64,000 nt of DNA from Armatimonadota bacterium. Its GTDB lineage: Bacteria; Armatimonadota; Fimbriimonadia; Fimbriimonadales; GBS-DC. Made by a program: the position numbers and the translations under genes. This document shows, piece by piece, positions 2 through 32,760 of this stretch. Under the pieces are notes generated by a model. The model saw nothing but the letters and a program-made list of their open reading frames with translations, was not told the DNA's origin and did not search any database. The DNA lies in NCBI GenBank assembly GCA_013359125.1, contig JABWCR010000014.1, positions 3,431 to 67,430 on the forward strand, read 5' to 3'. Within the stretch, counting starts at the first letter, position 1. Every line of letters starts with the position of its first letter.

Positions 2-2752
2 GAAATCAATGCCCGAGGCATGCATCTAACCCCCGGGGTCATCGACTGCCATTCGCACACCGCCATCTCGGGCGGCGTCAACGAGGGCACCAACGTCGTT
101 ACGGCGGAAGTTCGCATTCGAGACGTGGTCAACCCGAACGATGTGAACATCTATCGCCAGTTGGCGGGCGGCGTTACCGCGGCGAACCTTTTGCACGGTT
201 CGGCCAACGTGATCGGCGGTCAGAACGCCACGATCAAAATGCGCTGGGGCAAGACGGCCGATGAGATCATGTTCAAAGAGGCACCCGAAGGCATCAAGTT
301 CGCCTTGGGCGAAAACGTCAAGCGGTCGAACTTTAACGAGATCATCTCGACCGGCCAGCAGCCGCGCTATCCCACAACGCGCATGGGCGTCGAGCAGACC
401 GTGCGCGAACGCTTCATGTCTGCGCTCGATTACAAGCGCCAGCAAGAGGAGTTCCGCGCGGGCCGGCGCGCATTCCCTCCCAAGAGGGATCTGCAGCTGG
501 ACGCTATTGTGGAGATATTGGACGGCAAGCGTTTGATCCATTGTCATAGCTACCGACAGGACGAAATCCTGATGCTGATCCGCGTTTGCGACGAGTTCGG
601 CGTCAAGATCAAGACTTTTCAGCATGTGTTGGAAGGTTACAAGGTGGCCGACGAGATGGCCGCTCATGGCGTCGGCGGCTCTACGTTCTCCGACTGGTGG
701 GCGTACAAGGTCGAGGCGTTCGATGCGATCCCGCATAACGGCGCCCTGATGACGGCGCGAGGGGTCAATGTCTCCTTTAACAGCGACAGTTCCGAACTGG
801 CGCGTCGTCTCAATCTGGATGCGGCGAAAGGCGTCAAGTATGGCGGCATGGACGAGCAGGAAGCACTGAAACTGGTAACGCTCAATCCGGCGATTCAGTT
901 GGGCGTCGATAAGTATGTCGGAACGGTCGAACCGGGCAAGCAGGCCGATTTGGCGCTTTGGACCGGGCATCCGCTCGATTCGATGACGCGGTGCGAGATG
1001 ACCTTTGTCGATGGCGTTCGCTACTTCGATCGCACGACCGATTTAGAGTTCCGCAAGAAGTTGGACGAAGAGCGCGAGACCTATTTGAAGCAATTGCGAC
1101 CGTCGCCCTATGGCCAGGCGGCTGCCGCTCAGCCCGAACAGCCAGGCGAATTGCGCTCATCCATTGCAGGGCAGTGGTCCGGCAAGTTGTCTGGAGCCGA
1201 GTTCCTGCCACCGGAAGGCGCGACGCTCAGCATGACGGTTACGGTAGGCGCGGACGGATCGATCACGGGCGTTTCCAAGACCGATATGGGCGATGCTCCG
1301 ATCACGGGCGGAACTTTTAATGCGGCTACGGGCGAGGTCAGCCTAAAGATCGCTGTGCCTGGTTTGTCCGAGGTTACTATGAACGGCCGCGTGCGCGGAC
1401 GAACCATGACCGGCACGATCGCCATCATGGGGCAGACCGTGAACGTCAACCTGACCAAGGACGACGAAGAGAATCAGATTCTTCATGCATCGCACGAAGC
1501 TGAGTTGAAGACCAAAGTCGAGATCAGCCCTCGCTATGATGCCAGCAAAACCAAGACCCTGAAGACGAAAGGTCGAATGCTGATAACAAACGCCGAAATC
1601 CACACCATGGCTGGGCCGGTCATCAAGAACGGCTCGATCCTGATCGAAGACGGCAAGATCGCGGCGATCAATCCTAACCGACCGAATGTCGAAACGGTCT
1701 ACGATGCAAAAGGCAAGCGAGTCTATCCGGGCATGATCGACGGCCTGACGACCCTTGGCATCACCGAAATAGGCTCAATCACTGCCACCAACGATACGTC
1801 GGAAACAGGGCAGTTCAACCCCAATGCGAGGGTCGAGATTGCGCTGAATCCCGATTCGACCGCTATCCCCGTTGCCCGGGCCAATGGGGTTACCACGGCC
1901 ATTGTCGCGCCGTCCGGAGGCATCATTTCCGGTCAAGGCTGTGTGGTCAATCTAGATGGCTGGACGTGGGAAGATCTCTGTTTGAAGGGGCCTATCGGCC
2001 AGTTCGTCAACTTTAACGGCCCTTCCAGCAGCATAACAGGCGCCACGGACAGTCGAAAGAGCGACTTTGAGAACTCGATCAAGCCGTTGGACGAGTTTAT
2101 CGAGAACGCTCGTCGCTATCTGAAGGCTAATGGCGCCAATCGGCCATTGGCGGAGCGCGATCCGAGATTTGAGGCGATGGCGCCTATTTTGGACGGGCGT
2201 TTGCCGCTGTTCTTAAGGCTCAACTCCCCTACCGCCGCTCGCGCCGCTGTACAGTGGGCCGAGAAGCAGAATGTTCGGATAGCCTTTGTCGGCGGCAGCG
2301 AACTTTGGCGGGTGGCCGATTTGCTCAAGGAGCACGATGTTCCGGTCATTCTCTCCAAGACCCATGCGTTGCCAGCGGGCGAGGATCGACCCTACGACGA
2401 GCCCTTTACTATCCCAGCCAAATTGCACCAAGCGGGCGTAGCGTTCTGCTTTAGCACGGGCGCCTCGTCCGATGTGCGGAATCTGCCCTATCAAGCGGCA
2501 ATGGCCGCTTCGTTCGGACTTCCGAAAGAGGTTGCTCTTAGGGCGCTGACCATCGATGCGGCCAAGATTTTCGGTCTCGAAGATCGAATCGGCTCTATCG
2601 AGGTTGGCAAGGATGCGAACCTGTTTATCTGCGACGGCGACCCGCTCGATATTCGCACTAACGTCGTCCAGACGATCATCGAAGGGCGCTTGTGCGACAT
2701 GTCTAACAAGCACACGCAGCTATACGACAAGTACCGATCTCGGCCAAAGTAG
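2..2752 (+). CDS. Amidohydrolase-superfamily protein, tandem two-domain form; 5' end cut by window edge
   Basis: The frame is open from nt 2 (EINARGMHLTPGVIDCHSH), so the ATG at 20 is internal. PGVIDCHSH is the HxH metal motif. Both halves end in the family C-terminal signature (GTVEPGKQADLALW and GSIEVGKDANLFICDGDPL). The second half has GMIDGLTTLG where HxH is expected. Confidence 0.85.
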   Translation, partial: EINARGMHLTPGVIDCHSHTAISGGVNEGTNVVTAEVRIRDVVNPNDVNIYRQLAGGVTAANLLHGSANVIGGQNATIKMRWGKTADEIMFKEAPEGIKFALGENVKRSNFNEIISTGQQPRYPTTRMGVEQTVRERFMSALDYKRQQEEFRAGRRAFPPKRDLQLDAIVEILDGKRLIHCHSYRQDEILMLIRVCDEFGVKIKTFQHVLEGYKVADEMAAHGVGGSTFSDWWAYKVEAFDAIPHNGALMTARGVNVSFNSDSSELARRLNLDAAKGVKYGGMDEQEALKLVTLNPAIQLGVDKYVGTVEPGKQADLALWTGHPLDSMTRCEMTFVDGVRYFDRTTDLEFRKKLDEERETYLKQLRPSPYGQAAAAQPEQPGELRSSIAGQWSGKLSGAEFLPPEGATLSMTVTVGADGSITGVSKTDMGDAPITGGTFNAATGEVSLKIAVPGLSEVTMNGRVRGRTMTGTIAIMGQTVNVNLTKDDEENQILHASHEAELKTKVEISPRYDASKTKTLKTKGRMLITNAEIHTMAGPVIKNGSILIEDGKIAAINPNRPNVETVYDAKGKRVYPGMIDGLTTLGITEIGSITATNDTSETGQFNPNARVEIALNPDSTAIPVARANGVTTAIVAPSGGIISGQGCVVNLDGWTWEDLCLKGPIGQFVNFNGPSSSITGATDSRKSDFENSIKPLDEFIENARRYLKANGANRPLAERDPRFEAMAPILDGRLPLFLRLNSPTAARAAVQWAEKQNVRIAFVGGSELWRVADLLKEHDVPVILSKTHALPAGEDRPYDEPFTIPAKLHQAGVAFCFSTGASSDVRNLPYQAAMAASFGLPKEVALRALTIDAAKIFGLEDRIGSIEVGKDANLFICDGDPLDIRTNVVQTIIEGRLCDMSNKHTQLYDKYRSRPK

Positions 2753-2774: not shown

Positions 2775-2925
2775 ACATCGCTTAACGACTCGCCCCAAAA
2801 AGGGCGAAGGACGTCGAGTTTTCGCACCCAGCGAAAAGCGGGGGACCCGGAAGTGGGGTGTAGTCCGCGAAGGCGGACCGAGTAATCTTGGCTCGAACCC
2901 GACAGCTAACCTCGTAGACAGAGCA
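2775..2925 (+). promoter_or_regulatory. c-di-AMP riboswitch (ydaO-yuaA class)
   Basis: The conserved blocks occur in order: AUCGCUUAA, GCGGGGGACCC, GGGGUGUAGUCC and GAACCCGACAGCUAACCUCGUAG. Local hairpins are CGCCCCaaaaaGGGCG and UCCGCgaagGCGGA. It lies in a 237-nt gap 5' of the operon starting at 2990. Confidence 0.75.
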
Positions 2926-2927
2926 AG

Positions 2928-2959
2928 AATCTGGCGGATGCTCACCAGATTTTCTCTTT
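2928..2959 (+). terminator. Possible riboswitch expression-platform hairpin/terminator
   Basis: AATCTGG (2928-2934) pairs with CCAGATT (2945-2951) across a 10-nt loop, followed by TTCTCTTT. The stem is short and AT-rich for this genome, so this is tentative. Confidence 0.35.
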
Positions 2960-2989: not shown

Positions 2990-4468
2990 ATGTGCGGCAT
3001 TGCATGCGCCATACGAAGTTCCGATCCGGCCGAAGTTGCACGAATGTCGGAGAAAATCGCCCATCGCGGCCCTGACGGCGTCGGCCTGCTGGCCGACGCG
3101 GACAATGCCTTGGCTCATCGCCGTCTGGCCATTCTCGATCCCAAAGGAGGCGTGCAACCTTGGGCCACGCCAAGCGGTGGCGTGTTGATCTACAACGGCG
3201 AGATTTACAACCACCTAGGCCTTCGGTCGCAGATGCCTGACCGAACCTTTCAAACCCGGTGCGACACGGAAACCCTGGCCGCAGCGCTCGAGAATTGGGG
3301 CGCAGACGCCGTCGAGAAACTGGACGGTATGTTCGCATTTGTCTATGTCGACGGAGAGCGATACATCGCGGCCAGAGACCCGGTCGGCATCAAACCTCTG
3401 TTTCGAGCGGACCGCAACGGCGCGACCATCTTTGCGAGCGAGTTCAAAGCTTTTGACGATCAATGCACGAACATTGAGGACGTCCCTGCGGGCACCGTCA
3501 TCGATTCTGAAACGGGCGCCAAGCAGTTTTACTTTGTACCGAAGCCCGAGCCGCGCGCGATGTCGATGGAGACAGCGGCGGATGCCGTGCGAAGCATTCT
3601 TTACCGTGCGGTCTCTAAGCGCATGCTTTCGGATGTGCCGGTCGGAGTCTTCTTAAGCGGCGGGCTCGACAGCGCTATTATCGCCGCAATTGCAGTTAGG
3701 CTGAATCCAGACACGATGGCCTTTTCGGTCGGTTTCCACGACAGCCAGGACGCAGGGGCAGCGCAGGAGGTTGCGGCAGCTCTCGGAATGCGCCACTGCC
3801 ACGTTAGCCTGAGCGCGGGCAAATTGGTCGAAATGCTGCCGAAAGTCATTTATCACCTCGAGTCGTTCGATGCGCCGCTCGTTCGCAGCGCCTTGGCCAA
3901 CTATGCCGTTTCCGAGATGGCGCGGGATCACATAAAAGTGGCCCTCACGGGCGAAGGCGCCGATGAACTCTTTGCCGGATACGACTATCTTAGAGAGTTT
4001 TCCGGCGTTGGGCTGGACGAGAAACTCCGGTCGCTGGTTCTGGAGCTTCAGAATACCAATCTGCAGCGAACCGATCGAATGACGATGGCTCACGGGATTG
4101 AGGGGCGCGTGCCGTTTCTCGACAAGGAGATGATTGCGCTCGCGTTCCAACTCCCGGTCGAGCTAAAGCTCTCTCCAGCAGGCGTCAGCAAGGCCGTTCT
4201 GCGCATGGCGTTTCGGGACATGCTGCCAAATTGGGCGGTCAATCGTCCTAAGCAGGAGTTTGGTCGCGGCACCGGTGTGGCCGAAGTGATGGCCAAACAT
4301 GCAGCGATAGCGATCACTGACGATGAGTTTGAGGCTAACAGATTCGTATCGAGCGGGCTACCGTTGCGCGACAAGGAAGAGCTGATTTACTACCGAGTCT
4401 GGCGGAGTTTCTTCCGGCCGGAACTGACCGCTCTGGTCGGTCGAAGCCGCAAAGAGGAGATTGAATGA
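2990..4468 (+). CDS. Asparagine synthase (glutamine-hydrolysing)-like amidotransferase
   Basis: N-terminal MCGI gives the Cys2 nucleophile of a class II GATase. YNGEIYN is present, as is the PP-loop FLSGGLDSAIIAA. An SD (AAGGAGAA) lies upstream. Confidence 0.9.
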   Translation: MCGIACAIRSSDPAEVARMSEKIAHRGPDGVGLLADADNALAHRRLAILDPKGGVQPWATPSGGVLIYNGEIYNHLGLRSQMPDRTFQTRCDTETLAAALENWGADAVEKLDGMFAFVYVDGERYIAARDPVGIKPLFRADRNGATIFASEFKAFDDQCTNIEDVPAGTVIDSETGAKQFYFVPKPEPRAMSMETAADAVRSILYRAVSKRMLSDVPVGVFLSGGLDSAIIAAIAVRLNPDTMAFSVGFHDSQDAGAAQEVAAALGMRHCHVSLSAGKLVEMLPKVIYHLESFDAPLVRSALANYAVSEMARDHIKVALTGEGADELFAGYDYLREFSGVGLDEKLRSLVLELQNTNLQRTDRMTMAHGIEGRVPFLDKEMIALAFQLPVELKLSPAGVSKAVLRMAFRDMLPNWAVNRPKQEFGRGTGVAEVMAKHAAIAITDDEFEANRFVSSGLPLRDKEELIYYRVWRSFFRPELTALVGRSRKEEIE

Positions 4469-5574
4469 GCGACAAACCGAGATTTGCTATCTTGGGGGCC
4501 GGAAACGGCGGCTTAGCCATGGCTGGCCACCTGGCCTTGATGGGCTTCCCCGTCTCGCTTTTCAATCGCAACGAGGCGAGGATCGCGCTCATCCGGCAAA
4601 CAATGGAGATTCAGGTGCTGGCCAATCGCGAATCGGACGATCTTCCGCACGGCAGGGCTTCCATGGACCGTGTAACGTCGAACATGGCCGAAGCGATTCA
4701 CGATGCCGAGATCATCATGGTCGTCGCTCCCGCGACGGCGCACAGATATATGGCCGAAGAGGCTGCTCCGCACTTGCGCGACGGCCAGATCGTTGTGCTC
4801 AATCCGGGGCGAACGGGCGGCGCGCTGGAGTTTCGCCATGTGATCAAGGAAAAAGGATGCACGGCTGACGTTGTCGTGTCGGAGGCTCAAACGTTGTTAT
4901 ACGCCAGCCGAGCGTCCAACCCCGGACAGGTCAACATCTTTAGTATCAAGAACAGCGTGCCGATAGCCGCAATACCGGCCTACCGAACGCCTGAGGTGGT
5001 CAAGAGGCTCTCGGTCGCCTACCCCCAGTTTGTACCCGGCGACAATGCGCTCAAGACCAGCCTGGACAACATCGGCGCGATCTTTCATCCGGCGGTAACT
5101 TTGCTGAACGCAGCGCGAATTGAGACCGGCCGCGGCGATTTTGAGTTCTATATCGAAGGCATCTCGCGAAGCGTGGCCAAGGCGCTGGAGGTGATCGATG
5201 TAGAGCGAGTGAACGTCGGAAAAACCCTTGGTTTCAACTGTATGAGCGCGCGGGATTGGCTCTATGTGGCCTATGGCGCTGCGGGCAAAACCCTCTTCGA
5301 CTCCATCCGCGCTAACGAAGGCTACTATGGCATCAAGGCGCCCACACTGCTCGATCATCGCTATTTGACCGAGGACGTGCCGATGAGCCTGGTGCCCATT
5401 GCATCGTTGGGACGACACATGGACTCGCCATGCCCCACTATCGAAGCCATGATCCACTTAGCCAACGTCATCTTGGGAGTCGATTTCTGGGAAACTGGAC
5501 GCACCGTCGAATCGATGGGGCTGTCTGGCCTAAACTTGCAACAGATTCGCCGCGTCATTCTTGACGGAGAGTGA
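4465..5574 (+). CDS. NAD(P)-dependent opine (octopine/nopaline) dehydrogenase-family protein
   Basis: Has the GAGNGG Rossmann motif (FAILGAGNGGLAMAGHL). Family-typical blocks are DNIGAIFHPAVTLLNAARIE and FYIEGIS. Its start overlaps the upstream stop as ATGA. Confidence 0.85.
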   Translation: MSDKPRFAILGAGNGGLAMAGHLALMGFPVSLFNRNEARIALIRQTMEIQVLANRESDDLPHGRASMDRVTSNMAEAIHDAEIIMVVAPATAHRYMAEEAAPHLRDGQIVVLNPGRTGGALEFRHVIKEKGCTADVVVSEAQTLLYASRASNPGQVNIFSIKNSVPIAAIPAYRTPEVVKRLSVAYPQFVPGDNALKTSLDNIGAIFHPAVTLLNAARIETGRGDFEFYIEGISRSVAKALEVIDVERVNVGKTLGFNCMSARDWLYVAYGAAGKTLFDSIRANEGYYGIKAPTLLDHRYLTEDVPMSLVPIASLGRHMDSPCPTIEAMIHLANVILGVDFWETGRTVESMGLSGLNLQQIRRVILDGE

Positions 5575-5575
5575 G

Positions 5576-7453
5576 ATGAAGCCCCTTTCAGGCCGCGAGG
5601 TTATTGGTTTGTGCCGCCCCTATGTCGATGCTCATACGCTTGGGGTCAGCGCGATCGAGCAGCTCCTTATCGAGTGCGGATACGAGACGGTCATTGCCGA
5701 TGCGGACCTATGCGAAGCGGTCGGAGCGCCGAACGAACCCATTAACGAGGTTAAGATCGAGAATTGGATCAAGACCAACGGAATCAGCCGCTTGGGATTC
5801 AGTTACCGCTTGGACCCTGTTGACGGCGCCCGAGCATTTGGACGACTGAAGGCTGCGCTTGAGCGACGAAACCTCTTTGAAGAGAACGGAGGGCCGATCA
5901 AGGGCCTCTATTTTGCGGGTCTGCCCGAAGCCTGTCGTCGAGTCGAGGCTGAACATCGCGACAGTGTGAGAACCTTTATCGGCGATGAATCCCCCGCAGA
6001 GACTTTAGAAAAGTTTGGCGTCCCCAGCGGCCGCATTCCGTCTGCCCTTGCCAACGAGGCAACGGAGGATGCGGCACGGCTGGCTTTTGGCCAACGGCTC
6101 GTGCGATCCGAAGCCCACCTTAAGATAAAGCCTGTCGACCGGTCCGGCGGACCGAACTTTGGAACAAGGCGAGAGCATCTGCGCGACCGCATCGACCACG
6201 GCATCCAAATGGGCTTCCCGCCTCTGATGCGCGCGCATGTCGGGCCTTATCTTCCCAATCGGGAGGAGGCAGTCAGGCTCTATATCGAGCAGGCAAGGCA
6301 ATTGGCCGAGACCGGCTTCTTGGACGTGCTCTCGATCGGCTCCAGCCAATTGAGCCAAAGCCATTTCGGTCAAGACTGGGGCGATCTTCCCAACGGTGGC
6401 GGCGTGCCTGTCAACTCGCCAGAAGAGTATCGCGCCATCTACGAGGCGGCTCGACCGATGCTTGTGCGCACCTATGCCGGTACGAGAAATGTCGACAAAC
6501 TGGCGCCTGTCTACGAGGAGACGATCAACATCGCCTGGCACGCGCTTTCGTTTTGGTGGTTTTCGACCATCGATGGTCGCGGTCCAAATCCGCCCTTGCT
6601 CAATCTTCAACAGCACATGGCGACGCTGGAGCACATTGCACGGACCGGCAAGCCTTTCGAACCCAACATCCCCCATCATTTTGCGTTTCGGGGCGCGGAC
6701 GATGTCTCTTATGTCGTCTCTGCCATCTTGGCCGCGCGAACGGCTAAGCGCTTGGGCGTGCGCTATTTTGTGCTACAGCACATGCTCAACACGCCTCGTA
6801 GCACATGGGGGTCTCAAGACATTGCCAAAGGTCGGGCCATGCTCGCGTTAGCCCGAGATTTGGAGGACGAGCGGTTTCGCGTATTCTATCAGCCGCGCGC
6901 GGGCCTCGATTTCTTCTCGCCCGGCCTTGACAAGGCCAAGGCGCAGTTGGCTTCTGTCAGCGTTCTGATGGACTTGGTCGAGCCGAACAAACCGCATTCG
7001 CCCGATGCAATCCATGTGGTCAGTTACACCGAGGCCAGCCATTTGGCCGCGCCGCACGAGGTGGACGAGAGCATCCAGATAACGAGGGCGGCGATCGAAG
7101 CGCGCAGAAGGGAGAGATTCCAAGAAGGCGGAGAGTTGGAGCGCGAGGCCCAAGAGCGAACGGAAAAATTGCTGGGGGATGCCCGCAAGCTTCTAGCGAC
7201 GATGGAAGAGGCGATTCCCGATCTCTACTCCGCGAAGGGTCTCTACGATGCTTTCTGGGCGGGGTTCATGCCCGTGCCTTATCTGTGGGAAGGGCGAGAC
7301 GAGTTTGCTCGTGCCGTCAACTGGAAGACGGCCTTGCGAAACGGTTCGGTGATCGTGATCGACGAAAGGGGCCAACCAATTGAAGCAGAGGATCGTGCAA
7401 AGGTCGCAACGGCGAACCTGATTGACAACTATGCCGGCCGCCGTGTAGAATAG
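5576..7453 (+). CDS. B12-binding-like domain (DxHxxG) fused to a large mutase-like C-terminal domain
   Basis: DAHTLG lies in an N-terminal Rossmann-like segment of about 130 aa. The C-terminal 480 aa or so shows only motif-level resemblance to glutamate mutase E-type barrels (from memory). I prefer the ATG at 5576 (GGAGAG SD) over the listed TTG at 5561. Confidence 0.75.
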   Translation: MKPLSGREVIGLCRPYVDAHTLGVSAIEQLLIECGYETVIADADLCEAVGAPNEPINEVKIENWIKTNGISRLGFSYRLDPVDGARAFGRLKAALERRNLFEENGGPIKGLYFAGLPEACRRVEAEHRDSVRTFIGDESPAETLEKFGVPSGRIPSALANEATEDAARLAFGQRLVRSEAHLKIKPVDRSGGPNFGTRREHLRDRIDHGIQMGFPPLMRAHVGPYLPNREEAVRLYIEQARQLAETGFLDVLSIGSSQLSQSHFGQDWGDLPNGGGVPVNSPEEYRAIYEAARPMLVRTYAGTRNVDKLAPVYEETINIAWHALSFWWFSTIDGRGPNPPLLNLQQHMATLEHIARTGKPFEPNIPHHFAFRGADDVSYVVSAILAARTAKRLGVRYFVLQHMLNTPRSTWGSQDIAKGRAMLALARDLEDERFRVFYQPRAGLDFFSPGLDKAKAQLASVSVLMDLVEPNKPHSPDAIHVVSYTEASHLAAPHEVDESIQITRAAIEARRRERFQEGGELEREAQERTEKLLGDARKLLATMEEAIPDLYSAKGLYDAFWAGFMPVPYLWEGRDEFARAVNWKTALRNGSVIVIDERGQPIEAEDRAKVATANLIDNYAGRRVE

Positions 7454-7460
7454 GGCCGAT

Positions 7461-8333
7461 ATGCAGCCATGGATGGTCTCTTTGCACGGAGGACACAGCG
7501 GCGACTATTGTGACCACGCCCAAGGGACCCTCCGAGAAATCATCGAAACGGCGATCCGCATGGGCTTCCACACTTATGGTCTCGCCGAGCATATGCCTCG
7601 CGTCGAGGATCGCTTCATTTACTCGGAAGAACGCTCGATGGGTTGGGATGTCGAACATCTCCACAGGATGTTCGACGCTTATGCCGTCGAGACCCGCGCA
7701 CTGGCCGAGGAGTACGCCGATCGGATCGTCATTCTGAGAGGGTTTGAGGCCGAAGTGATCCCCCAGGACCGCTATCCGGACCTAATCCGACAAACCCTCG
7801 ATCGCTATCAGTTTGACTTTTTTGTCGGCTCGGCGCACTACGTGCGCGAGATCATTATCGATGGGCCGGACGAGCAGTTTGCCCATGCGATCGAGGTATA
7901 CGACGGTCTGGAGAACATGGCTGTGGCGTACTATGAAACGGTGGCCGATCTGATCGAGGCCGTCTCTCCGCCCGTGATCGGCCATTTTGATCTGGTCAAA
8001 AAGCGCGCTCGGCCCCATGGTCCGGTCGACGGTCCTCGCGCAAGGGAAGCGGCCTATCATGCCCTGACGCTGGCCAAACAGCATGACTGCATTCTCGATC
8101 TAAACCTTGCGGGTTGGCGAAAAGGGCTGAACGAACCCTATCCGGCGCCTTGGATAGTCGAAATGGCGCGAGAATTAGGCATCGACTTTTGCTTTGGCGA
8201 CGACAGCCACGGCCCTCATCAAGTGGGCGAGAACATTGAAAAAGGCCGCCTCTATCTGCTCGAACACGGCGTCAAGCACATTCGCGCTCTCAAACCCGGC
8301 GGACAATCCGATGTGATCTCTCTGGAGGCTTAG
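7461..8333 (+). CDS. PHP-family histidinol-phosphatase-like phosphoesterase (HisJ/His2 type)
   Basis: PHP metal ligand blocks are present: HGGHSGDYCDH, GLAEHMPR, GSAHYV, GHFDL and GDDSHG. It lies 7 nt after the upstream stop. Confidence 0.8.
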   Translation: MQPWMVSLHGGHSGDYCDHAQGTLREIIETAIRMGFHTYGLAEHMPRVEDRFIYSEERSMGWDVEHLHRMFDAYAVETRALAEEYADRIVILRGFEAEVIPQDRYPDLIRQTLDRYQFDFFVGSAHYVREIIIDGPDEQFAHAIEVYDGLENMAVAYYETVADLIEAVSPPVIGHFDLVKKRARPHGPVDGPRAREAAYHALTLAKQHDCILDLNLAGWRKGLNEPYPAPWIVEMARELGIDFCFGDDSHGPHQVGENIEKGRLYLLEHGVKHIRALKPGGQSDVISLEA

Positions 8334-8335
8334 AC

Positions 8336-10840
8336 ATGATCTCTATCTTGCTTGCTTGCCTGATCGCCCAGCAGCCGATTCGTTCGGGCGACTCGCAACC
8401 GATCCATGATCCATGGAGACCCGTAACGCGGATCGACCGCACTGGTTTCAAACTCCAGTACTACACGTCGCAGCCGTGCGACTCTAGAGTTCAGGTTCGC
8501 CAAGGCGATCTGCCGATGACGACCTTTGGCAAAGGGCTTGAGAATGTTTGGGTCGGCGCGCTCACGTTCGCTCGACCGGGACAGCGAACCTTGCACGAGA
8601 TCGAGATAACAGGGCTGGAGCCGGGCAAGAAGTACTTTTATCGAATTCTTGATCCGGGCGCCGTGCCGACCGGCCAAGAAAAGCGCTGGGGCGCAAAGCC
8701 TCCGTGGCGGCGCGAGCAGAGCGTCATCACGCAGGCCTCCAGAGGCTACAAGAGCATCGTCCGCATTCCGGTCAAAGTGCTTCTGATGCCCAATGTCGTC
8801 AACCTGAAGAGCGTAACGTCGGACGCGATGCAACCGTTGCCCCTCAGCGAAGAGGAGCTTCGCATCGTCCGGCAAGAATACGCTTACACATCGCGATTTT
8901 TCTTCGTCAACAGCGGCATGAGGCTTTGGGTCGATTTTCAGATATTTGTCGATAATCGGTGGCAGCGATGGAGCGAGGAGCCAGAAGGAATCGAGGCCTT
9001 CTACAAAGGATGGCCCGCATGTCGAAGCTGGTCGGGCGAGGATTTTCGCGGACCGGGCGGCGGCGACTTCACCGTTGTGGATACGAGAAACCTCCAGGTC
9101 AAGAACGCTCAACCTGTTCAAGAAGAGACGCCCTATATGGGGCAGATCGAACAGGCCTTCCCTCGGCGATGGAACCCGACTCTAAAGAAGTGGGAGTTTT
9201 ACAACAGCGGCGGGGGCACGTTTGGAGCGGACGAATTTCCCCGAGGTGTTACCAGCCGCTCGCAGTACCTTGGCGGAGGCGACACCGCTTGGCTAGCCTG
9301 TCATGAGTTTCATCACCAACTGGAATCGCATGGCGCATTCAGTCTCAGCGATCGCGAGGATGAGCGCGTGGTTTTCAATCACTACGAACCAAGGCGCCGA
9401 GAACAGAGGCCCGATGGAACGTATGCCGAAGCGACCTGGGCGACCAGCGGCAAGCATGGCGAGCATTGGGACGGTATGGCTTTTTGGGATCGAACGCTGA
9501 CGGACGCGCAATGGTTGCGGATGTATATGTCCTATGCGGTGGTCGTCCGCGATGCCGACGAGGACGGCGTGCCGGACGACGATCCTCGCCTGCCGTTGGA
9601 TGAGAAGCGGTTTGGCAGCGACCCGAGGCGAGACAGGACGGACGGGCGCATGGGCGATTTGGACAAGACCATGCTGAGCCACTGGATACCTTCTTGCCTT
9701 CAGGCCAGTTGGACCAAGCCCCCTTTCCAAGGAGTAACTCCCAATCCTCGCAGCATCGACAGCGACGGGGACGGCCAGCCGGACGACATCGACCCGTTGC
9801 CGCTTTTTGCCTATTCCCCGTTCGTCTGGCCCAAGCGAGCGACCGTGGACGGCCAGGCCGACGAATGGCGGCATACCCCTGTTAGCGGACAGATGGACGA
9901 GGGCGGGGCCGCGCTGACCTTTAAGCATGGGCACGACGACGCGGCCTACTATGGAGTCTTCACTGTTTCGGGAGACTGGAAGCGCGTTTATGCAACTTTG
10001 GACGGCGAGGGCGAGGGCTTTTTCTCGACCAATCGCACCCTTGCGATCGAGTTTACAAACGGCGCTGACGTTGCGTTTCGTTCGATACATGGCAACAGCA
10101 AGGGCCTAAACTGGAAGGCGAGCAAATCGGGCAGTGAGACCGTCATCGAGTTCTCGATCCCCAACCGCGAGGAAGGGCCTTGGTTTTGGCGGCGCGGCGG
10201 TCGCGAGGTCGGCGTGAGCATCGACCTGTTCGACGAGAAGGGAACGGGCTATTCGGTCTACGAGCCGTATCGAGCGATCTACTTTAGGATGTTGGAGCCG
10301 CACGGACAGTTTCCTATGCCGAGCGGCGCTCCGAGCGAACTGGGGACGGACGCCAAGCGCTTTATGCCAGGGGATGCAGCCGTTGCGGTTACAGGTTCCG
10401 GCTGGCGGGTTGCGGACGGCGCATGGCGATGCGACACCCATCCCGAAACTCATCTCACGATCGAGGCGCCCGATGCGACCGAGTTCGATCTGTGGATCGA
10501 CATCGAGGCTAAGCAGGACGCGATTCTGGCAGCTTTCTTGCCCGGATCGCAGAATCCGACTGCCGGGACGGACTATGTGCTCTTTGTCGGCGGCTATGCC
10601 AACACCGTTACGCGGTTTCGGCTTTTTGGCAGAGAAGAGGGCGAGGCGGATCAGATGATGTCGCCTGGTCGCCATCGAGTTCAACTGAGCCGCCGGAACG
10701 GCACTATTTGGGGTCTGATGGACGGCAAGCCGATACTCTGGGCAAAAGACCCGAACCCGACGGCCAAGATCAATCGTCTGGCAATCATCGGAGGTTACGA
10801 CGGGAACCAAGTTGTTCGAGAAATTCGCGCCCGCTGGTAG
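8336..10840 (+). CDS. Large multidomain protein with an HExxH metallopeptidase-like motif
   Basis: Strong SD (GGAGG). Domain order as read: an FN3-like segment resembling the purple-acid-phosphatase N-domain (LHEIEITGLEPGKKYFYRI); HEFHH; two acidic Ca-binding-like motifs (DADEDGVPDDD and DSDGDGQPDDID); and C-terminal lectin-like regions. Confidence 0.8.
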   Translation: MISILLACLIAQQPIRSGDSQPIHDPWRPVTRIDRTGFKLQYYTSQPCDSRVQVRQGDLPMTTFGKGLENVWVGALTFARPGQRTLHEIEITGLEPGKKYFYRILDPGAVPTGQEKRWGAKPPWRREQSVITQASRGYKSIVRIPVKVLLMPNVVNLKSVTSDAMQPLPLSEEELRIVRQEYAYTSRFFFVNSGMRLWVDFQIFVDNRWQRWSEEPEGIEAFYKGWPACRSWSGEDFRGPGGGDFTVVDTRNLQVKNAQPVQEETPYMGQIEQAFPRRWNPTLKKWEFYNSGGGTFGADEFPRGVTSRSQYLGGGDTAWLACHEFHHQLESHGAFSLSDREDERVVFNHYEPRRREQRPDGTYAEATWATSGKHGEHWDGMAFWDRTLTDAQWLRMYMSYAVVVRDADEDGVPDDDPRLPLDEKRFGSDPRRDRTDGRMGDLDKTMLSHWIPSCLQASWTKPPFQGVTPNPRSIDSDGDGQPDDIDPLPLFAYSPFVWPKRATVDGQADEWRHTPVSGQMDEGGAALTFKHGHDDAAYYGVFTVSGDWKRVYATLDGEGEGFFSTNRTLAIEFTNGADVAFRSIHGNSKGLNWKASKSGSETVIEFSIPNREEGPWFWRRGGREVGVSIDLFDEKGTGYSVYEPYRAIYFRMLEPHGQFPMPSGAPSELGTDAKRFMPGDAAVAVTGSGWRVADGAWRCDTHPETHLTIEAPDATEFDLWIDIEAKQDAILAAFLPGSQNPTAGTDYVLFVGGYANTVTRFRLFGREEGEADQMMSPGRHRVQLSRRNGTIWGLMDGKPILWAKDPNPTAKINRLAIIGGYDGNQVVREIRARW

Positions 10841-10849: not shown

Positions 10850-11362
10850 GTGCTACAAAAGAAGTTAAGCCGAACCAAAGTCTCGCTGGTGGGCGGCGGG
10901 AGCGCGACTCTGCCCGACGCACGGCCCGCGCTTGTGCTTTTTGTCGGCCACGAATGCCCCATCGCTAACGCCTATGCGCCGGAAGTCTCTCGCATTGCTG
11001 CCGAGTACGCCAAGAAAGGCGTCAAAACTCTTCTCGTCTATCCCGATCCAGCATTGAACGGGAAGACGATTCAGCGCCACCAACAGGAGTTTAAGCTGCC
11101 GAGCATGGCGATACACGATAAGGAGCACAAGTTGGTGAACGCCTTTGGCGCGACCGTAACTCCTCAGGCCTTTCTATTGTTGCCAAACGGCGAGATCGCG
11201 TACCAAGGACGTATAGACGACCGGTATGCCGACTACTCGAAACTGCGGCGCGAACCCAATCGGCGCGATTTGCGCAATGCTCTTGACGCGGTTCTTGCCG
11301 GAAAGAAGCCACAAGTTCGTGAAACCGTGGCGCTCGGGTGTGTAATTCCCTCGCGCAAATGA
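10850..11362 (+). CDS. Thioredoxin-fold (redoxin-like) protein with a single-Cys CPxA motif
   Basis: LVLFVGHECPIANAY plus TPQAFLLLPNGEIAYQGRIDD. It is paralogous to the C-terminal half of the 30135-31211 protein. Confidence 0.75.
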   Translation: MLQKKLSRTKVSLVGGGSATLPDARPALVLFVGHECPIANAYAPEVSRIAAEYAKKGVKTLLVYPDPALNGKTIQRHQQEFKLPSMAIHDKEHKLVNAFGATVTPQAFLLLPNGEIAYQGRIDDRYADYSKLRREPNRRDLRNALDAVLAGKKPQVRETVALGCVIPSRK

Positions 11363-12537
11363 AGTTCCTGTTAGTCATTTCCGTCCTCTTTGCGGCTGTG
11401 CAACCGCCTACGTATAGCGATCAGATTGCAGCGATCTTGGACGAACACTGCGCGCCCTGCCATCGAGCCAATGCGATCGGCCCGTTTACCCTGACCGACT
11501 ACGAATCGGCGCGGAAGCGCGCGCCTCAACTGGCCTATGTGGCGCAACGACGACTGATGCCGCCTTGGAAAGCCGAGCCTTGCGACGTGGCATTCGAAGG
11601 CGAACGAAGGTTGACGAGGGAACAGATTCGCCTCATCGACGACTGGGCGGCCGCCGGCGCCCCCGAAGGCGATCCAAGGCGACGCCCCAAACCGCCGAGT
11701 TTTAGCCAGGGATGGGCGCTGGGGCAGCCGGACGAGATCGTACAGCTGCCCAGAGAGCACGCCATTCCCGCAGAGGGGCGCGATCTGTTCTATACGTTCG
11801 CCATCCCACTGAGGGCAGACAAGGAGAGATATGTCAGCGCAATCCAAGTCATGCCCAGCAATCCGCGCGTGCTGCACCACGTGCTGGTCTATGCGAACAA
11901 GCAGAACCTTCCGAGCGGCAAGGCGCTCGCGCCGCACGATCCCGATTCGTTCCTCTTCATTTGGTCTCCAGGGCATCCGACAGTTAAACTGCCTGAAGGC
12001 ATCTACAAACGAATTCCGGCTGGTTCGGGTCTGCTGGTCCAAGCGCACTACCATGCAACGGGGAGAGAGGAGCGCGATCGGCTCAGAATCGGTCTTTACT
12101 ACGCTGGGCAACCCAAGGACGAGGTTGAGATGGTTGAGATTGCGCCAAAACTGCCGACGATCCCGGCCAATGAAAGTCGATTCTTGATCCAAGAGACCGT
12201 CAAGATCGATAAAGATCGGACGCTGTTAGGCATCGTCCCCCATGCCCGGTTGCTGTGCGTTGAGGTTAGGCTGACTCTGAGATTGCCGACCGGGGAAACC
12301 AAATCGCTTCTGATCATTCGCGACTGGGACTTTAACTGGCAGGATCGATATGTGCTCAAGGAGCCTTTGACTTTACCAAAGGGCTCTCAGTTGACTGCTC
12401 GGTTCATTTATGATAACTCTTCGGCGAATCCTCGGAATCCCATCGCTCCGCCTCGACCAATAGCCGCTGGACAGGGGTTGGAAGACGAGACCGCGTTGAT
12501 CTGGCTCGAAACGCTGCCCGCCAAGACGGTACAATGA
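11359..12537 (+). CDS. Secreted c-type heme (CxxCH) domain fused to a copper type II monooxygenase-like domain
   Basis: Signal peptide MKFLLVISVLFAA. Carries CAPCH, plus HH (VLHHVLVY) and HxH (QAHYHATG) arranged as in PHM/DBH-type Cu sites. The ATG at 11359 overlaps the upstream stop (ATGA). Confidence 0.75.
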   Translation: MKFLLVISVLFAAVQPPTYSDQIAAILDEHCAPCHRANAIGPFTLTDYESARKRAPQLAYVAQRRLMPPWKAEPCDVAFEGERRLTREQIRLIDDWAAAGAPEGDPRRRPKPPSFSQGWALGQPDEIVQLPREHAIPAEGRDLFYTFAIPLRADKERYVSAIQVMPSNPRVLHHVLVYANKQNLPSGKALAPHDPDSFLFIWSPGHPTVKLPEGIYKRIPAGSGLLVQAHYHATGREERDRLRIGLYYAGQPKDEVEMVEIAPKLPTIPANESRFLIQETVKIDKDRTLLGIVPHARLLCVEVRLTLRLPTGETKSLLIIRDWDFNWQDRYVLKEPLTLPKGSQLTARFIYDNSSANPRNPIAPPRPIAAGQGLEDETALIWLETLPAKTVQ

Positions 12538-16647: not shown

Positions 16648-16649
16648 AG

Positions 16650-19705: not shown

Positions 19706-20004
19706 CTCTTGCGCCTCCTTTTGTTCGTAGATTAACAAAGATTATGGCCATTTTTAGGCCAGTATGTCAAGCCAATAGCAAATAGGCCGGACATCGAAAG
19801 GAGGATCGATGCCCGGCCGTCTCTCGTCGCTCGGGCCGGCGGACCCAAGCGCCCGTCTCGCGGTATCAACGGTCTGAAGACCGCCGCACCCTTTACGGAG
19901 AAAGGAGGTCAATCACTTATATAGACGATTGTCGGCTAAAAAGGGTTCGCTCAACCTGTCCTCAGGTAAAATCCGTCCATAGAACGACTGAGGCCGACTA
20001 TCCG

Positions 20005-31211: not shown

Positions 31212-31265
31212 GTGTGACCACCCTCCGGTAGTTTTTCGGTACAACTTAACAACACGTTTGCAAGC

Positions 31266-32618
<1,353 letters not shown>

Positions 32619-32755: not shown

Positions 32756-32760
32756 CTCTT

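What the first reader, a model, noticed from the sequence alone, without database searches (positions are those of the whole stretch)
5576..7453. Single-polypeptide fusion of a B12-binding DxHxxG domain with a large barrel-like domain
- **N-terminal domain.** The first 130 aa or so contain DAHTLG, followed by GYETVIAD and a later ...GLYFAG... segment. This is the layout of the cobalamin-binding Rossmann module.
- **C-terminal domain.** The remaining 480 aa or so show a motif order that loosely parallels the glutamate mutase E subunit as I remember it: RAHVG, VRTYAGT, and a block of conserved small and hydrophobic residues around VRYFVLQHML.
- **Possible meaning.** A fused S+E-type carbon-skeleton mutase inside the riboswitch operon would supply a branched amino acid of the 3-methylaspartate type.
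- **Caveat.** The GG of the canonical B12 domain is degenerate.
Basis: partly seen in the sequence, partly recalled or inferred. Interest (0 to 1): 0.6.

Follow-up and report, generated by a model that had tools for sequence, protein, structure and literature searches.

The report
Fused B12 mutase paired with opine dehydrogenase
This gene encodes a single-chain, vitamin-B12-dependent mutase distantly related to glutamate mutase; it belongs to a large uncharacterised family that nearly always sits beside an opine dehydrogenase, and many of its operons are under salt- or osmotic-stress riboswitches, pointing to an unknown B12-dependent pathway.

Summary
No Pfam, NCBIfam or PDB sequence hit was found directly. 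Deeper evidence still supports a fused GlmS+GlmE-type mutase:
- **Fold.** The AF2 model (pTM 0.87) has a Rossmann domain plus a TIM barrel. The top solved match is glutamate mutase E, followed only by other adenosylcobalamin (AdoCbl) mutases.
- **Remote homology.** A broadened profile hits solved B12-binding domains. Distant relatives reach Pfam Met_asp_mut_E and B12-binding, and some are fused to the mutase reactivase MutL.
- **Conserved residues.** D18-x-H20-x-x-G23 is invariant, as is the Glu aligned to GlmE's adenosyl-ribose Glu330.
- **Difference from GlmE.** The arginine claw and Glu171 are not kept in register, so the substrate probably differs.

Context is the main new finding. A CENDH-like opine dehydrogenase is adjacent in 46 of 53 fully flanked loci across many phyla. 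An AsnB-like amidotransferase or an ATP-grasp ligase accompanies it, never both. Several operons include mechanosensitive-channel genes. The operon follows a c-di-AMP riboswitch here and in L054, and nhaA-I (Li+/Na+) riboswitches in five other loci.

Most likely it is a new-specificity AdoCbl mutase in an osmotic-stress pathway. Substrate and product are unknown.

The parts
5576..7453 (+). Complete ORF, 625 aa: single-chain B12-domain + GlmE-like barrel mutase
   Evidence: ORF, ATG, RBS. (>2,866 homologues). (AF2 pLDDT 85, pTM 0.87). (Foldseek top hits are all AdoCbl mutases).
5576..5980 (+). N-terminal Rossmann-type cobalamin-binding domain (residues ~1-135). Contains S76-Y-R78-L79 in place of the SxL motif and A114-G115 in place of GG.
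   Evidence: Five beta-alpha units in the model. Profile A2 hits solved B12 domains: 4jgi_A at 3e-7, 2yxb_A 'coenzyme B12-dependent mutase' at 3.5e-6, MetH, and the HCM small subunit at 1e-3, with the His motif aligned. Invariant residues.
5627..5644 (+). DAHTLG = DxHxxG base-off/His-on cobalamin ligand motif (D18, H20, G23)
   Evidence: Invariant in 32 of 32 family members. H20 and G23 are kept in >=90% of the wider superfamily. Aligned to 'GDLHDIG' of corrinoid protein 4jgi.
5981..6220 (+). Helical linker between the two domains (residues ~136-215)
   Evidence: DSSP of the model. Less conserved in A1.
6221..7045 (+). Eight-stranded TIM barrel, GlmE-like (residues ~216-490). Invariant polar residues sit on, or within a few residues after, the strands: R219/H221, S253/Q258, R298/Y300, H322/W328, D333/R335, E362/N364/H367/H368, Q401/N405, Q439/R441, H480/E486.
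   Evidence: Strands at 217-222, 251-254, 296-300, 319-324, 361-363, 397-403, 434-442 and 478-481. Barrel-only model versus GlmE 1cb7_B: E 1e-11, TM 0.70/0.63. hhalign to the GlmE family: E 3.4e-4, collinear over 346 columns.
7031..7033 (+). Codon of invariant E486, aligned to GlmE Glu330. That residue binds the ribose of the 5'-deoxyadenosyl group in glutamate mutase (role recalled from the literature).
   Evidence: hhalign pairs 'HVVSYTEA' with 'IVKTPHEA'. Invariance.
7046..7450 (+). C-terminal helical region plus beta-hairpin (residues ~491-625). It aligns with the C-terminal part of GlmE.
   Evidence: 455 aligned columns against the 483-residue GlmE.
4465..5574 (+). Opine dehydrogenase, the conserved partner gene. 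Its stop codon lies 1 nt before the mutase ATG.
   Evidence: PF02317 at 1.8e-46. Arthrobacter CENDH 1bg6 at E 1.9e-79 over the full length, with His, Arg and Asp conserved at the columns of CENDH H202, R292 and D297. Adjacent on the same strand in 46 of 53 fully flanked loci.
2990..4468 (+). AsnB-type glutamine-dependent amidotransferase, first gene of the operon. It overlaps the ODH start by 4 nt.
   Evidence: PF00733, PF13537 and TIGR01536 at 399 bits. An AsnB homologue lies within 4 kb on the same strand in 22 of 53 loci, never together with the ATP-grasp ligase.
2802..2932 (+). c-di-AMP (ydaO) riboswitch aptamer in the operon leader
   Evidence: RF00379, 62.7 bits against a gathering score of 38, E 3.6e-12, full length. 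The same family sits upstream of ODH-mutase-AsnB in L054.
2926..2959 (+). Hairpin followed by a U-run, overlapping the 3' end of the aptamer. Candidate terminator (OFF-switch expression platform).
   Evidence: Sequence. Fold of -16.3 kcal/mol, z -1.7, so only weakly better than shuffles. Not called by the strict terminator scan.
7461..8333 (+). HisJ-family PHP phosphatase, next gene in the operon. Lineage-specific accessory; an annotated PHP gene is also present in L004.
   Evidence: TIGR01856 at 197 bits. PHP in L004.

Best explanation
The ORF encodes a single-polypeptide, adenosylcobalamin-dependent radical isomerase of the glutamate-mutase superfamily.

**Proposed mechanism.**
- The N-terminal Rossmann domain binds the cofactor base-off/His-on through H20 of the D18-x-H20-x-x-G23 motif and places it over the C-terminal face of a GlmE-like TIM barrel.
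- Co-C homolysis gives a 5'-deoxyadenosyl radical, held through E486.
- The radical abstracts hydrogen from a carboxylate-rich substrate bound by the barrel's invariant Arg, His and Tyr residues.
- A 1,2 carbon-skeleton shift of the glutamate-to-3-methylaspartate type follows.

**Specificity.** It is not that of classical GlmE. The enzyme works as an obligate pair with a CENDH-like opine dehydrogenase, which reductively condenses an amino acid with a 2-oxo acid. Two routes are possible:
- the mutase makes the branched amino acid that the dehydrogenase then N-carboxyalkylates;
- or the mutase rearranges the glutamate-type arm of the opine.

**Downstream step.** A carboxylate of the product is then amidated. 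AsnB does this with ammonia in stress operons such as this one. An ATP-grasp ligase does it in glycan clusters.

**Regulation and role.** Here the operon is switched off by c-di-AMP. In other phyla it follows Li+/Na+ riboswitches and includes MscS channel genes. The free product is therefore most likely a compatible solute or another salt-stress metabolite.

**Shown versus inferred.**
- Shown: fold, remote homology, motif conservation, gene linkage, riboswitch identity.
- Inferred: cofactor form, radical chemistry, substrate, order of steps, osmolyte role.
For: **Fold and homology**
- Fold. GlmE is top, and the next-best hits (top 12 for the whole protein, top 9 for the barrel alone) are all AdoCbl mutases or aminomutases.
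- B12 domain: one search gives profile hits to solved B12 domains with the His motif aligned. One search shows invariant D18, H20, G23.
- Transitive homology: relatives found with the family profile (P0164 at 3.9e-74) hit PF06368 at 27.5 bits (gathering score 26.6) and PF02310. P0181, P0201 and P0234 are fused to PF13941 MutL, the glutamate-mutase reactivase family.
- hhalign to GlmE is collinear, E 3.4e-4, and pairs E486 with E330 and Q439 with Q292.

**Partnership**
- ODH lies within 4 kb on the same strand in 46 of 53 loci, AsnB in 22 of 53 and ATP-grasp in 14 of 53. The last two are mutually exclusive.
- Even a 31%-identical paralogue sits beside Octopine_DH and an ATP-grasp gene.
- The ODH is a close CENDH homologue with catalytic residues kept.
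- There is a 1-nt gap between the ODH stop and the mutase ATG.
- P0164 carries a GshB/RimK-type ATP-grasp fusion, which fits an acidic-amino-acid substrate.

**Stress link**
- c-di-AMP riboswitch here and in L054.
- nhaA-I riboswitches upstream of ODH in L004, L018 (two copies), L030, L044 and L082.
- MscS or MS-channel TM genes lie inside these operons.
- c-di-AMP riboswitches are OFF switches for osmotic-stress genes, including osmolyte synthesis (PMC9337991). The nhaA-I class senses Li+ or Na+ and is associated with nhaA, otsA and mscS (PMC9646797).
Against: - The target itself has no direct Pfam, NCBIfam or PDB sequence hit.
- hhalign probability is only 38%, so residue mapping is tentative.
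- GlmE's arginine claw and Glu171 are not conserved in register.
- The SxL leucine is replaced by invariant R78, and GG is replaced by AG.
- No MutL-type reactivase, adenosyltransferase or B12 uptake or synthesis gene was seen in the part of the window annotated.
- Seven of 53 loci lack an ODH.
- No compatible solute of the predicted type is known, and no literature links opine dehydrogenases with B12 mutases.
- The downstream genes in this window are cell-wall enzymes (PBPs), which is the other theme of c-di-AMP riboswitches.
Confidence: 0.58

Rival explanations
1. It is an orthodox glutamate mutase (EC 5.4.99.1), simply fused S-E. It interconverts free L-glutamate and (2S,3S)-3-methylaspartate for glutamate catabolism or for supply of 3-methylaspartate.
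For: - GlmE is the best structural match.
- Its length (625 aa) is close to GlmS plus GlmE (137 + 483).
- Relatives reach PF06368 and are fused to MutL.
- An AsnB-like enzyme that acts on an aspartate-type beta-carboxylate is a frequent neighbour.
Against: - R66, R100, R149 and E171 of GlmE align to H221, Q261, Y300 and I332.
- Identity to GlmE is 14-15% and there is no PF06368 hit.
- No methylaspartate ammonia-lyase or mesaconate-pathway genes were seen among the called neighbours.
- The conserved partner is an opine dehydrogenase, and regulation is by osmotic or cation riboswitches rather than a catabolic setting.
Confidence: 0.2
2. It is an AdoCbl- and PLP-dependent aminomutase of the lysine-5,6- or ornithine-4,5-aminomutase type. 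It would shift an amino group to make a beta- or omega-amino acid, a route to a beta-amino-acid osmolyte.
For: - KamD and OraE are the next-best structural matches (E about 1e-10, TM 0.58-0.61).
- There is a precedent for an aminomutase-derived osmolyte under Na+ and c-di-AMP riboswitches (N-epsilon-acetyl-beta-lysine; PMC9337991).
Against: - No invariant lysine exists in the Rossmann domain, where these enzymes carry the PLP lysine (location of that lysine recalled from the literature).
- The Pfam bridge goes to Met_asp_mut_E, not to aminomutase families.
- GlmE ranks first in both searches.
Confidence: 0.1
3. It is a corrinoid (methylcobalamin) methyltransferase or corrinoid carrier rather than a radical isomerase. 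The barrel would act as a methyl-donor or methyl-acceptor binding domain.
For: - The strongest sequence-profile hits of the N-domain include corrinoid proteins and MetH.
- BHMT/Hcy-type barrels appear among weaker fold hits (E about 1e-3 to 5e-5).
- SAM methyltransferases are neighbours in some loci.
Against: - There is no B12-binding_2 cap domain.
- No invariant Cys or Zn site exists in the barrel.
- AdoCbl mutases outrank methyltransferase barrels by 6-7 orders of magnitude in E-value.
- The adenosyl-ribose Glu is conserved.
- Relatives are fused to MutL.
Confidence: 0.05
4. The Rossmann domain has lost cobalamin binding (AG instead of GG, Arg instead of the SxL Leu). The protein would be a cofactor-independent TIM-barrel enzyme or a regulator.
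For: - Two of the three classical B12 motifs are degenerate.
- The protein is below all curated family thresholds.
Against: - D18, H20 and G23 are invariant across phyla at about 50% overall identity.
- H20 and G23 are kept even in relatives that are 25-30% identical.
- The two-domain arrangement is predicted with confidence (pTM 0.87).
Confidence: 0.04

Closest known systems
Glutamate mutase GlmS/GlmE (MutS/MutE), Clostridium cochlearium, PDB 1cb7/1ccw
   Same: - Rossmann B12 domain with DxHxxG plus an E-type TIM barrel.
- Best structural match (barrel TM 0.70/0.63).
- Collinear profile alignment.
- The Glu aligned to the adenosyl-ribose Glu330 is conserved.
- Relatives are fused to the MutL reactivase.
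   Different: - One chain instead of two subunits, with the S domain at the N-terminus.
- 14-15% identity and no PF06368 hit.
- The arginine claw (R66, R100, R149) and E171 are not kept in register.
- The partner is an opine dehydrogenase rather than methylaspartase.
- The operon is controlled by stress riboswitches.
2-Methyleneglutarate mutase (Eubacterium barkeri) and the engineered GlmES fusion protein (both recalled from the literature, not tested here)
   Same: Single-polypeptide carbon-skeleton mutases of the GlmE type acting on a C5 dicarboxylate.
   Different: In both, as I recall, the B12 domain is C-terminal to the barrel, whereas here it is N-terminal. No sequence was available to compare, and the genomic context is unrelated.
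Lysine 5,6-aminomutase (KamDE) and ornithine 4,5-aminomutase (OraSE)
   Same: Same barrel superfamily. They are the second-best structural matches (E about 1e-10).
   Different: Those enzymes need PLP bound to a lysine of the Rossmann module. No invariant lysine exists there in this family.
IcmF (fused isobutyryl-CoA mutase)
   Same: A natural fusion with an N-terminal B12 domain preceding the substrate barrel. It is weakly hit by the N-domain profile (E 0.05).
   Different: It has an acyl-CoA-type barrel and an inserted G-protein chaperone. Structural similarity is much weaker.
Osmolyte operons under c-di-AMP or Na+ riboswitches (for example lysine-2,3-aminomutase for N-epsilon-acetyl-beta-lysine; PMC9337991)
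   Same: A radical amino-acid isomerase gene placed under a c-di-AMP OFF switch or a cation ON switch. Mechanosensitive-channel genes are nearby.
   Different: The cofactor is B12 rather than radical SAM. The partners are an opine dehydrogenase and AsnB. The product is unknown.

Membership tests
Glutamate mutase (GlmS+GlmE, EC 5.4.99.1) | Rossmann cobalamin-binding domain with the DxHxxG His-on motif | tested here: met
   D18, H20 and G23 are invariant. Profile hits to solved B12 domains align this motif.
Glutamate mutase (GlmS+GlmE, EC 5.4.99.1) | SxL and GG motifs of the B12 domain | tested here: inconclusive
   S76 is kept. The Leu position holds invariant R78, with L79 next to it. GG is A114-G115.
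Glutamate mutase (GlmS+GlmE, EC 5.4.99.1) | E-subunit TIM-barrel fold | tested here: met
   Foldseek puts 1cb7_B as top hit, E 1e-11, TM 0.70/0.63 over 455 columns.
Glutamate mutase (GlmS+GlmE, EC 5.4.99.1) | Sequence match to Pfam PF06368 (Met_asp_mut_E) and PF02310 | tested here: not met
   There is no hit even at E <= 10. Only distant relatives reach these models (P0164: 27.5 bits against a gathering score of 26.6).
Glutamate mutase (GlmS+GlmE, EC 5.4.99.1) | Substrate 'arginine claw' R66/R100/R149 and catalytic E171 (roles recalled from the GlmE literature) | tested here: not met
   They align to H221, Q261, Y300 and I332. Invariant R219, R298, D333 and R335 lie 1-3 residues away (alignment probability 38%, so this is tentative).
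Glutamate mutase (GlmS+GlmE, EC 5.4.99.1) | Glu330, which holds the 5'-deoxyadenosyl ribose | tested here: met
   Invariant E486 aligns to E330.
Glutamate mutase (GlmS+GlmE, EC 5.4.99.1) | Gene neighbourhood with glmL/mutL and methylaspartate ammonia-lyase | tested here: not met
   Neither was seen among the called or annotated neighbours of the window and the loci inspected. MutL occurs only as a fusion in distant relatives.
Glutamate mutase (GlmS+GlmE, EC 5.4.99.1) | Catalysis of Glu <-> 3-methylaspartate with AdoCbl | not testable with these tools
   Needs an enzyme assay.
AdoCbl/PLP aminomutases (KamDE, OraSE) | PLP-binding lysine in the Rossmann module | tested here: not met
   No invariant Lys lies in residues 1-200. 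The invariant lysines are K359, K391 and K418, all in the barrel.
Corrinoid methyltransferase systems | Helical cap domain (PF02607) and/or a Zn/Cys site in the barrel | tested here: not met
   No PF02607 hit. The only invariant Cys is C120, in the N-domain.
Opine dehydrogenase (the neighbouring gene 4465-5574) | Full-length similarity to a characterised opine dehydrogenase with the catalytic His, Arg and Asp | tested here: met
   1bg6 (CENDH) at E 1.9e-79 over residues 4-364. H, R and D are conserved at the columns of CENDH H202, R292 and D297 (residue roles recalled from the literature).
c-di-AMP (ydaO) riboswitch regulon | Full-length RF00379 aptamer above the gathering score in the operon leader | tested here: met
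   62.7 bits against 38 at 2802-2932, 58 nt before the first gene. Also found in L054.

The most novel reading that the evidence does not exclude
The mutase, the opine dehydrogenase and AsnB together form a previously unknown B12-dependent pathway. Its product would be a new class of compatible solute: a branched, N-carboxyalkylated amino-acid amide derived from glutamate. The pathway would be switched on by low c-di-AMP or high Na+/Li+ and vented through the co-encoded MscS channels. The same mutase-dehydrogenase chemistry, coupled to an ATP-grasp ligase, would be reused to decorate surface glycans. This would add a new substrate class to the short list of adenosylcobalamin isomerases and make salt adaptation B12-dependent in many uncultured phyla.
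Probability: 0.3. Interest if true: 0.85.

Novelty: new variant of a known kind. Interest (0 to 1): 0.66.

Why it matters
- **Rarity.** To my knowledge only about a dozen adenosylcobalamin isomerase specificities are known, and new ones are rare.
- **Size and spread.** This family is large. More than 2,866 clusters at 90% identity were found, and 325 species-representative genomes out of 185,579 carry it. It spans Armatimonadota, Planctomycetota, Verrucomicrobiota, Bacteroidota, Acidobacteriota, Desulfobacterota-type lineages, Firmicutes and others.
- **Invisible to curated models.** Pfam and NCBIfam do not detect it, and a few records are annotated only as 'cobalamin-binding protein'.
- **A testable hypothesis.** Its strict pairing with an opine dehydrogenase, and its placement under c-di-AMP and Li+/Na+ riboswitches next to mechanosensitive channels, point to a B12-dependent osmotic-stress metabolite. 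They also add an unreported gene association to both riboswitch classes.
- **Strains for experiments.** Cultured carriers exist: Azoarcus indigens DSM 12121 (L039) and Jeotgalibaca caeni YN-L-12 (L086).

Tried and rejected
**Searches that found nothing**
- Direct hmmscan of the protein and of its two halves against Pfam (E up to 10) and NCBIfam gave nothing relevant.
- phmmer, and the narrow family profile A1, against PDB sequences gave nothing. Only the broadened profile A2 reached B12 domains, and it still did not reach GlmE by HMMER.
- Four literature searches linking opine dehydrogenase, glutamate mutase, cobalamin, O-antigen, or c-di-AMP riboswitch with asparagine synthase found nothing relevant. 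The original c-di-AMP riboswitch paper is not held.
- The supplement of the Li+ riboswitch paper does not list ODH or cobalamin genes among nhaA-I associations.
- The 834-aa operon gene has no PDB, Pfam or NCBIfam match.

**Tools unavailable or weak**
- hhalign against the single GlmE sequence was weak (E 0.0017). It improved only modestly with a GlmE family profile (E 3.4e-4, probability 38%).
- An nhmmer model built from two c-di-AMP aptamers found no further copies in the 86 loci, so the count of c-di-AMP-controlled operons is a lower bound.
- The strict terminator scan found no terminator after the riboswitch. A weak hairpin plus U-run is visible by eye and by folding.

**Considered and set aside**
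- Circular permutation relative to GlmE was suggested by the QPRAG and RAHVG motif order. The profile and structural alignments are collinear, so I dropped it.
- Radical-SAM B12 enzymes were considered. There is no Cys cluster, and OxsB is only a marginal fold hit.
- ORF clusters 7 and 14 in the context analysis were antisense artefacts of high-GC DNA.
- Contexts of the seven loci without an ODH gave no alternative partner.
Full report
- The ORF runs from an ATG at 5576 to a stop codon ending at 7453, giving 625 aa. The ATG is preceded by GGAGAG and lies one nucleotide after the TGA of the upstream gene.
- This is not a chance ORF. A search of the 5.8-billion-protein collection returned more than 2,866 homologues of about 625 aa at 56-64% identity. 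None has a Pfam domain, and a few are named only 'cobalamin-binding protein' by NCBI.
- In a 32-sequence alignment D18, H20, G23, S76, R78, L79 and G115 are invariant, as is a long list of polar barrel residues.

**Curated models do not see the protein.**
- Pfam (to E = 10, whole protein and both halves), NCBIfam and PDB sequences give nothing relevant.
Three independent lines of evidence show that would have been wrong.

**Line 1: structure.**
- An AlphaFold2 model built on the family alignment is confident (pLDDT 85, pTM 0.87). It shows a five-unit Rossmann domain (about residues 9-135), a helical linker, an eight-stranded TIM barrel (about 217-481) and a helical/hairpin tail.
- Foldseek against the PDB puts glutamate mutase E (1cb7_B) first at E 5.6e-12.
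- The next eleven hits are all adenosylcobalamin enzymes: ornithine 4,5-aminomutase, lysine 5,6-aminomutase, methylmalonyl-CoA mutase and 2-hydroxyisobutyryl-CoA mutase.
- A separate model of the barrel part alone (pTM 0.90) again finds GlmE first. The match has E 1e-11 and TM 0.70/0.63 over 455 columns of the 483-residue chain. Only KamD and OraE follow in the top nine.

**Line 2: profiles.**
- An exhaustive HMM search of 1.84 billion representatives found 574 relatives. They include a more distant branch at 25-31% identity with CxHxxG or DPHTxG in place of DAHTLG.
- A profile that includes this branch hits solved B12-binding domains with the His motif aligned. Hits are corrinoid protein 4jgi at 3e-7, 'coenzyme B12-dependent mutase' 2yxb at 3.5e-6, MetH, and the HCM small subunit at 1e-3.

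**Line 3: transitive homology.**
- The distant relatives themselves hit Pfam. P0164 hits Met_asp_mut_E at 27.5 bits (gathering score 26.6) and B12-binding.
- P0181, P0201 and P0234 are fused to MutL (PF13941), the family of the glutamate-mutase reactivating chaperone. P0164 is fused to a GshB/RimK-type ATP-grasp domain.
- Fusion to a reactivase is hard to explain unless these proteins do radical AdoCbl chemistry.

**Active-site comparison with GlmE.**
- I recovered the true GlmE sequence and compared family profiles.
- The alignment is collinear over 346 columns (target 219-605 against GlmE 64-441) with E 3.4e-4. Its probability is only 38%, so residue pairs are tentative.
- Invariant E486 ('HVVSYSEA') pairs with Glu330 ('VKTPHEA'). 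In the GlmE literature, as I recall it, that residue holds the ribose of the 5'-deoxyadenosyl group. Q439 pairs with Q292.
- The substrate-binding arginines R66, R100 and R149 and the catalytic E171 pair with H221, Q261, Y300 and I332. Other invariant residues lie one to three positions away: R219, R298, D333 and R335.
- I read this as the cofactor-handling machinery retained and the substrate pocket rebuilt.
- No invariant lysine exists in the Rossmann domain, where the PLP-dependent aminomutases carry theirs. That argues against that rival.

**Genomic context across phyla.**
- A scan of one genome per species found 325 loci. I fetched 80 of them with flanks, plus loci from metagenomes.
- They span Armatimonadota, Planctomycetota, Verrucomicrobiota, Kiritimatiellia, Lentisphaerae, Bacteroidota, Acidobacteriota, delta-proteobacterial lineages, Clostridia and two cultured strains: Azoarcus indigens DSM 12121 and Jeotgalibaca caeni.
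- Counts below refer to the 53 loci with at least 3 kb on both sides (clusters).

| Neighbour (same strand, within 4 kb) | Loci out of 53 | Notes |
|---|---|---|
| Octopine_DH-family gene | 46 | Usually immediately upstream |
| AsnB-type amidotransferase | 22 | Never together with the ATP-grasp ligase |
| ATP-grasp ligase with an L-amino-acid-ligase C-domain | 14 | Never together with AsnB |

- Mechanosensitive-channel genes (MscS, or a 225-aa MS-channel TM protein) accompany about a dozen of the loci. All but one of these also carry AsnB.
- DegT aminotransferases, glycosyltransferases and hexapeptide acyltransferases accompany the ATP-grasp type.
- Even the 31%-identical paralogue P0168 sits next to an Octopine_DH gene and an ATP-grasp gene in a polysaccharide cluster. 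The mutase-dehydrogenase pairing is therefore old and defines the superfamily.

**The partner dehydrogenase.**
- The window's dehydrogenase is a genuine opine dehydrogenase homologue. It matches Arthrobacter N-(1-D-carboxyethyl)-L-norvaline dehydrogenase (1bg6) at E 1.9e-79 over its full length.
- His, Arg and Asp are conserved at the columns of H202, R292 and D297.

**Regulation.**
- In the window a full-length c-di-AMP riboswitch (RF00379, 62.7 bits) sits 58 nt before the first gene. A hairpin and U-run follow it and overlap its 3' end.
- The genes after it are tightly packed, with gaps from -4 to about 20 nt: AsnB, ODH, mutase, PHP phosphatase, an 834-aa unknown, a redoxin, a 392/399-aa unknown and an M24 peptidase.
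- The same riboswitch precedes ODH-mutase-AsnB in a Fimbriimonadia genome, L054.
- In Phycisphaerae, Planctomycetales, Verrucomicrobiota-type and Lentisphaerae loci the operon is instead preceded by nhaA-I RNAs. These are L004, L018 (tandem), L030, L044 and L082.
- Published work shows that c-di-AMP riboswitches are OFF switches for osmotic-stress genes. [quoted passage not shown]
- Published work also shows that nhaA-I RNAs are Li+-sensing riboswitches with Na+-sensing variants, associated with nhaA, otsA, trkA and mscS (PMC9646797). Neither paper lists this operon.
- In three loci the dehydrogenase carries an N-terminal domain. It was annotated as PTS-EIIA(Ntr)-type only in L004. For L018 and L047 I infer it from gene length (556 aa). 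As I recall, that domain type is linked to K+ homeostasis.

**Most likely mechanism.**
- The protein binds adenosylcobalamin base-off/His-on through H20, and the Co-C bond is homolysed.
- The adenosyl radical, positioned by E486, abstracts a hydrogen from a polycarboxylate substrate held by the barrel's Arg, His and Tyr set.
- A glutamate-mutase-type fragmentation and recombination then moves a glycyl-type fragment. This turns a linear C5 (glutamate-type) skeleton into a branched (3-methylaspartate-type) one.
- The tight coupling to the opine dehydrogenase has two plausible forms:
  - The mutase makes a beta-branched amino acid from glutamate, and the dehydrogenase pulls the unfavourable equilibrium by reductive condensation with pyruvate.
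  - The dehydrogenase first makes an N-(carboxyalkyl)glutamate, and the mutase rearranges its glutamate arm. A secondary amine would still stabilise the migrating radical, and the extra carboxylate would explain the rebuilt pocket.
- A carboxylate is then amidated with ammonia (AsnB) to give a free solute, or ligated by the ATP-grasp enzyme in glycan clusters.
- Riboswitch control and the embedded channel genes point to a compatible solute or salt-stress metabolite in the AsnB-type operons.
- Fold, homology, conservation, linkage and riboswitch identity are shown. Cofactor form, chemistry, substrate, order of steps and physiological role are inferred.

**Rivals.**
- **Orthodox catabolic or biosynthetic glutamate mutase (0.2).** It fits the fold but not the pocket, the partners or the regulation.
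- **PLP/AdoCbl aminomutase (0.1).** It fits the second-rank structural hits and the osmolyte precedent, but the Rossmann-domain lysine and any Pfam bridge are missing.
- **Methyl-corrinoid methyltransferase (0.05).** It is disfavoured by the ranking of fold hits, the lack of a cap domain and Zn site, and the MutL fusions.
- **Loss of B12 binding (0.04).** It is disfavoured by the invariant DxHxxG.
- **Cell-wall role.** PBPs lie downstream in this window, and c-di-AMP riboswitches also control wall remodelling. I cannot exclude such a role for this lineage, but that context is not conserved in other phyla.

**Comparison with what is known.**
- The protein works like glutamate mutase, but I do not file it as a member. 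It fails the curated model, the substrate-residue test and the neighbourhood test.
- It is best described as a new, widespread family within the GlmE/KamD/OraE barrel superfamily. Its domain order is reversed (S then E), its pocket is altered and its partner is new.
- Hence the rating 'new variant of a known kind'.

**Limitations.**
- Residue mapping rests on a low-probability profile alignment and could not be checked by 3D superposition.
- Only 16 sources (15 loci plus the window) were scanned with Rfam, so riboswitch frequencies are lower bounds.
- The part of the window annotated holds no B12 supply genes, so cofactor availability in this organism is unknown. About 30 kb of the 64 kb were not annotated.

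Noticed in passing
L004 3278-3332; L018 5535-5588 and 6378-6431; L030 6602-6655; L044 7691-7744; L082 7487-7541 (all + strand); L019 898-949 and L021 6834-6885 (- strand): nhaA-I (Li+-I / Na+-II class) riboswitches precede the ODH-mutase operon in five loci from Planctomycetota- and Verrucomicrobia-type bacteria, once in tandem. This gene association is not listed in the riboswitch papers. Whether these copies sense Li+ or Na+ was not determined.
   Followed up: partly
P0164, P0168, P0171, P0181, P0201, P0204, P0234 (distant relatives); L090-L092: A paralogous branch replaces DxHxxG by (D)CxHxxG, with Cys at the Asp position. It occurs fused to MutL, to a GshB/RimK-type ATP-grasp domain, or to a Peptidase_M15 domain. 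It too sits beside an Octopine_DH gene in polysaccharide clusters.
   Followed up: partly
L004 3762-5405; also the ~556-aa ODH genes in L018 (8178-9848) and L047 (8298-9968): The opine dehydrogenase in L004 carries an N-terminal PTS_EIIA_2 domain, which suggests phosphorylation-dependent control. The ODH genes in L018 and L047 are similarly long (556 aa), but their N-terminal domain was not checked.
   Followed up: no
window 8336-10840 (+) and 11338-12537 (+): Two genes inside the same c-di-AMP operon (834 aa and 392/399 aa) have no significant Pfam or NCBIfam match. The 834-aa protein has only a sub-threshold Pur_ac_phosph_N hit and also has no PDB sequence match. I did not see them in the loci from other phyla.
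   Followed up: partly
window 20-2752 (+), continuing upstream of the window: The ORF before the riboswitch is cut by the window start. On the source contig it is a 1,475-aa protein with three tandem amidohydrolase (Amidohydro_1/3) modules.
   Followed up: no
window 32669-32758 (-) and 31266-32609 (-): A TPP riboswitch (68 bits) lies directly upstream of thiC. This is an ordinary arrangement.
   Followed up: yes
window 10850-11362 (+), 18473-19738 (-), 30135-31244 (-): Three separate AhpC/TSA-redoxin family genes lie within 20 kb. One is inside the riboswitch operon and one is a tandem double-redoxin protein.
   Followed up: no
window 14359-16647 (+) and 16566-18476 (+): A class A PBP (transglycosylase + transpeptidase) and a class B PBP follow the operon on the same strand. 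Cell-wall remodelling is the other known theme of c-di-AMP riboswitches.
   Followed up: no
L004 13562-14191: A separate small corrinoid-type protein (B12-binding_2 + B12-binding, 209 aa) lies 6 kb downstream of the mutase in the Phycisphaerae locus.
   Followed up: no
window 35528-37135, 37126-38106, 43296-46751 (-), 22696-23304, 23301-24590: Several sizeable ORFs, including one of 1,151 aa, have no Pfam match at E <= 1e-5.
   Followed up: no
L022, L024, L026, L032, L043 (Rikenellaceae): In these Bacteroidota loci the mutase has no adjacent ODH. It is followed by a TonB-dependent receptor. In four of the five loci (none found in L043) it is preceded by LCM-type and/or PEMT-type methyltransferases.
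   Followed up: partly
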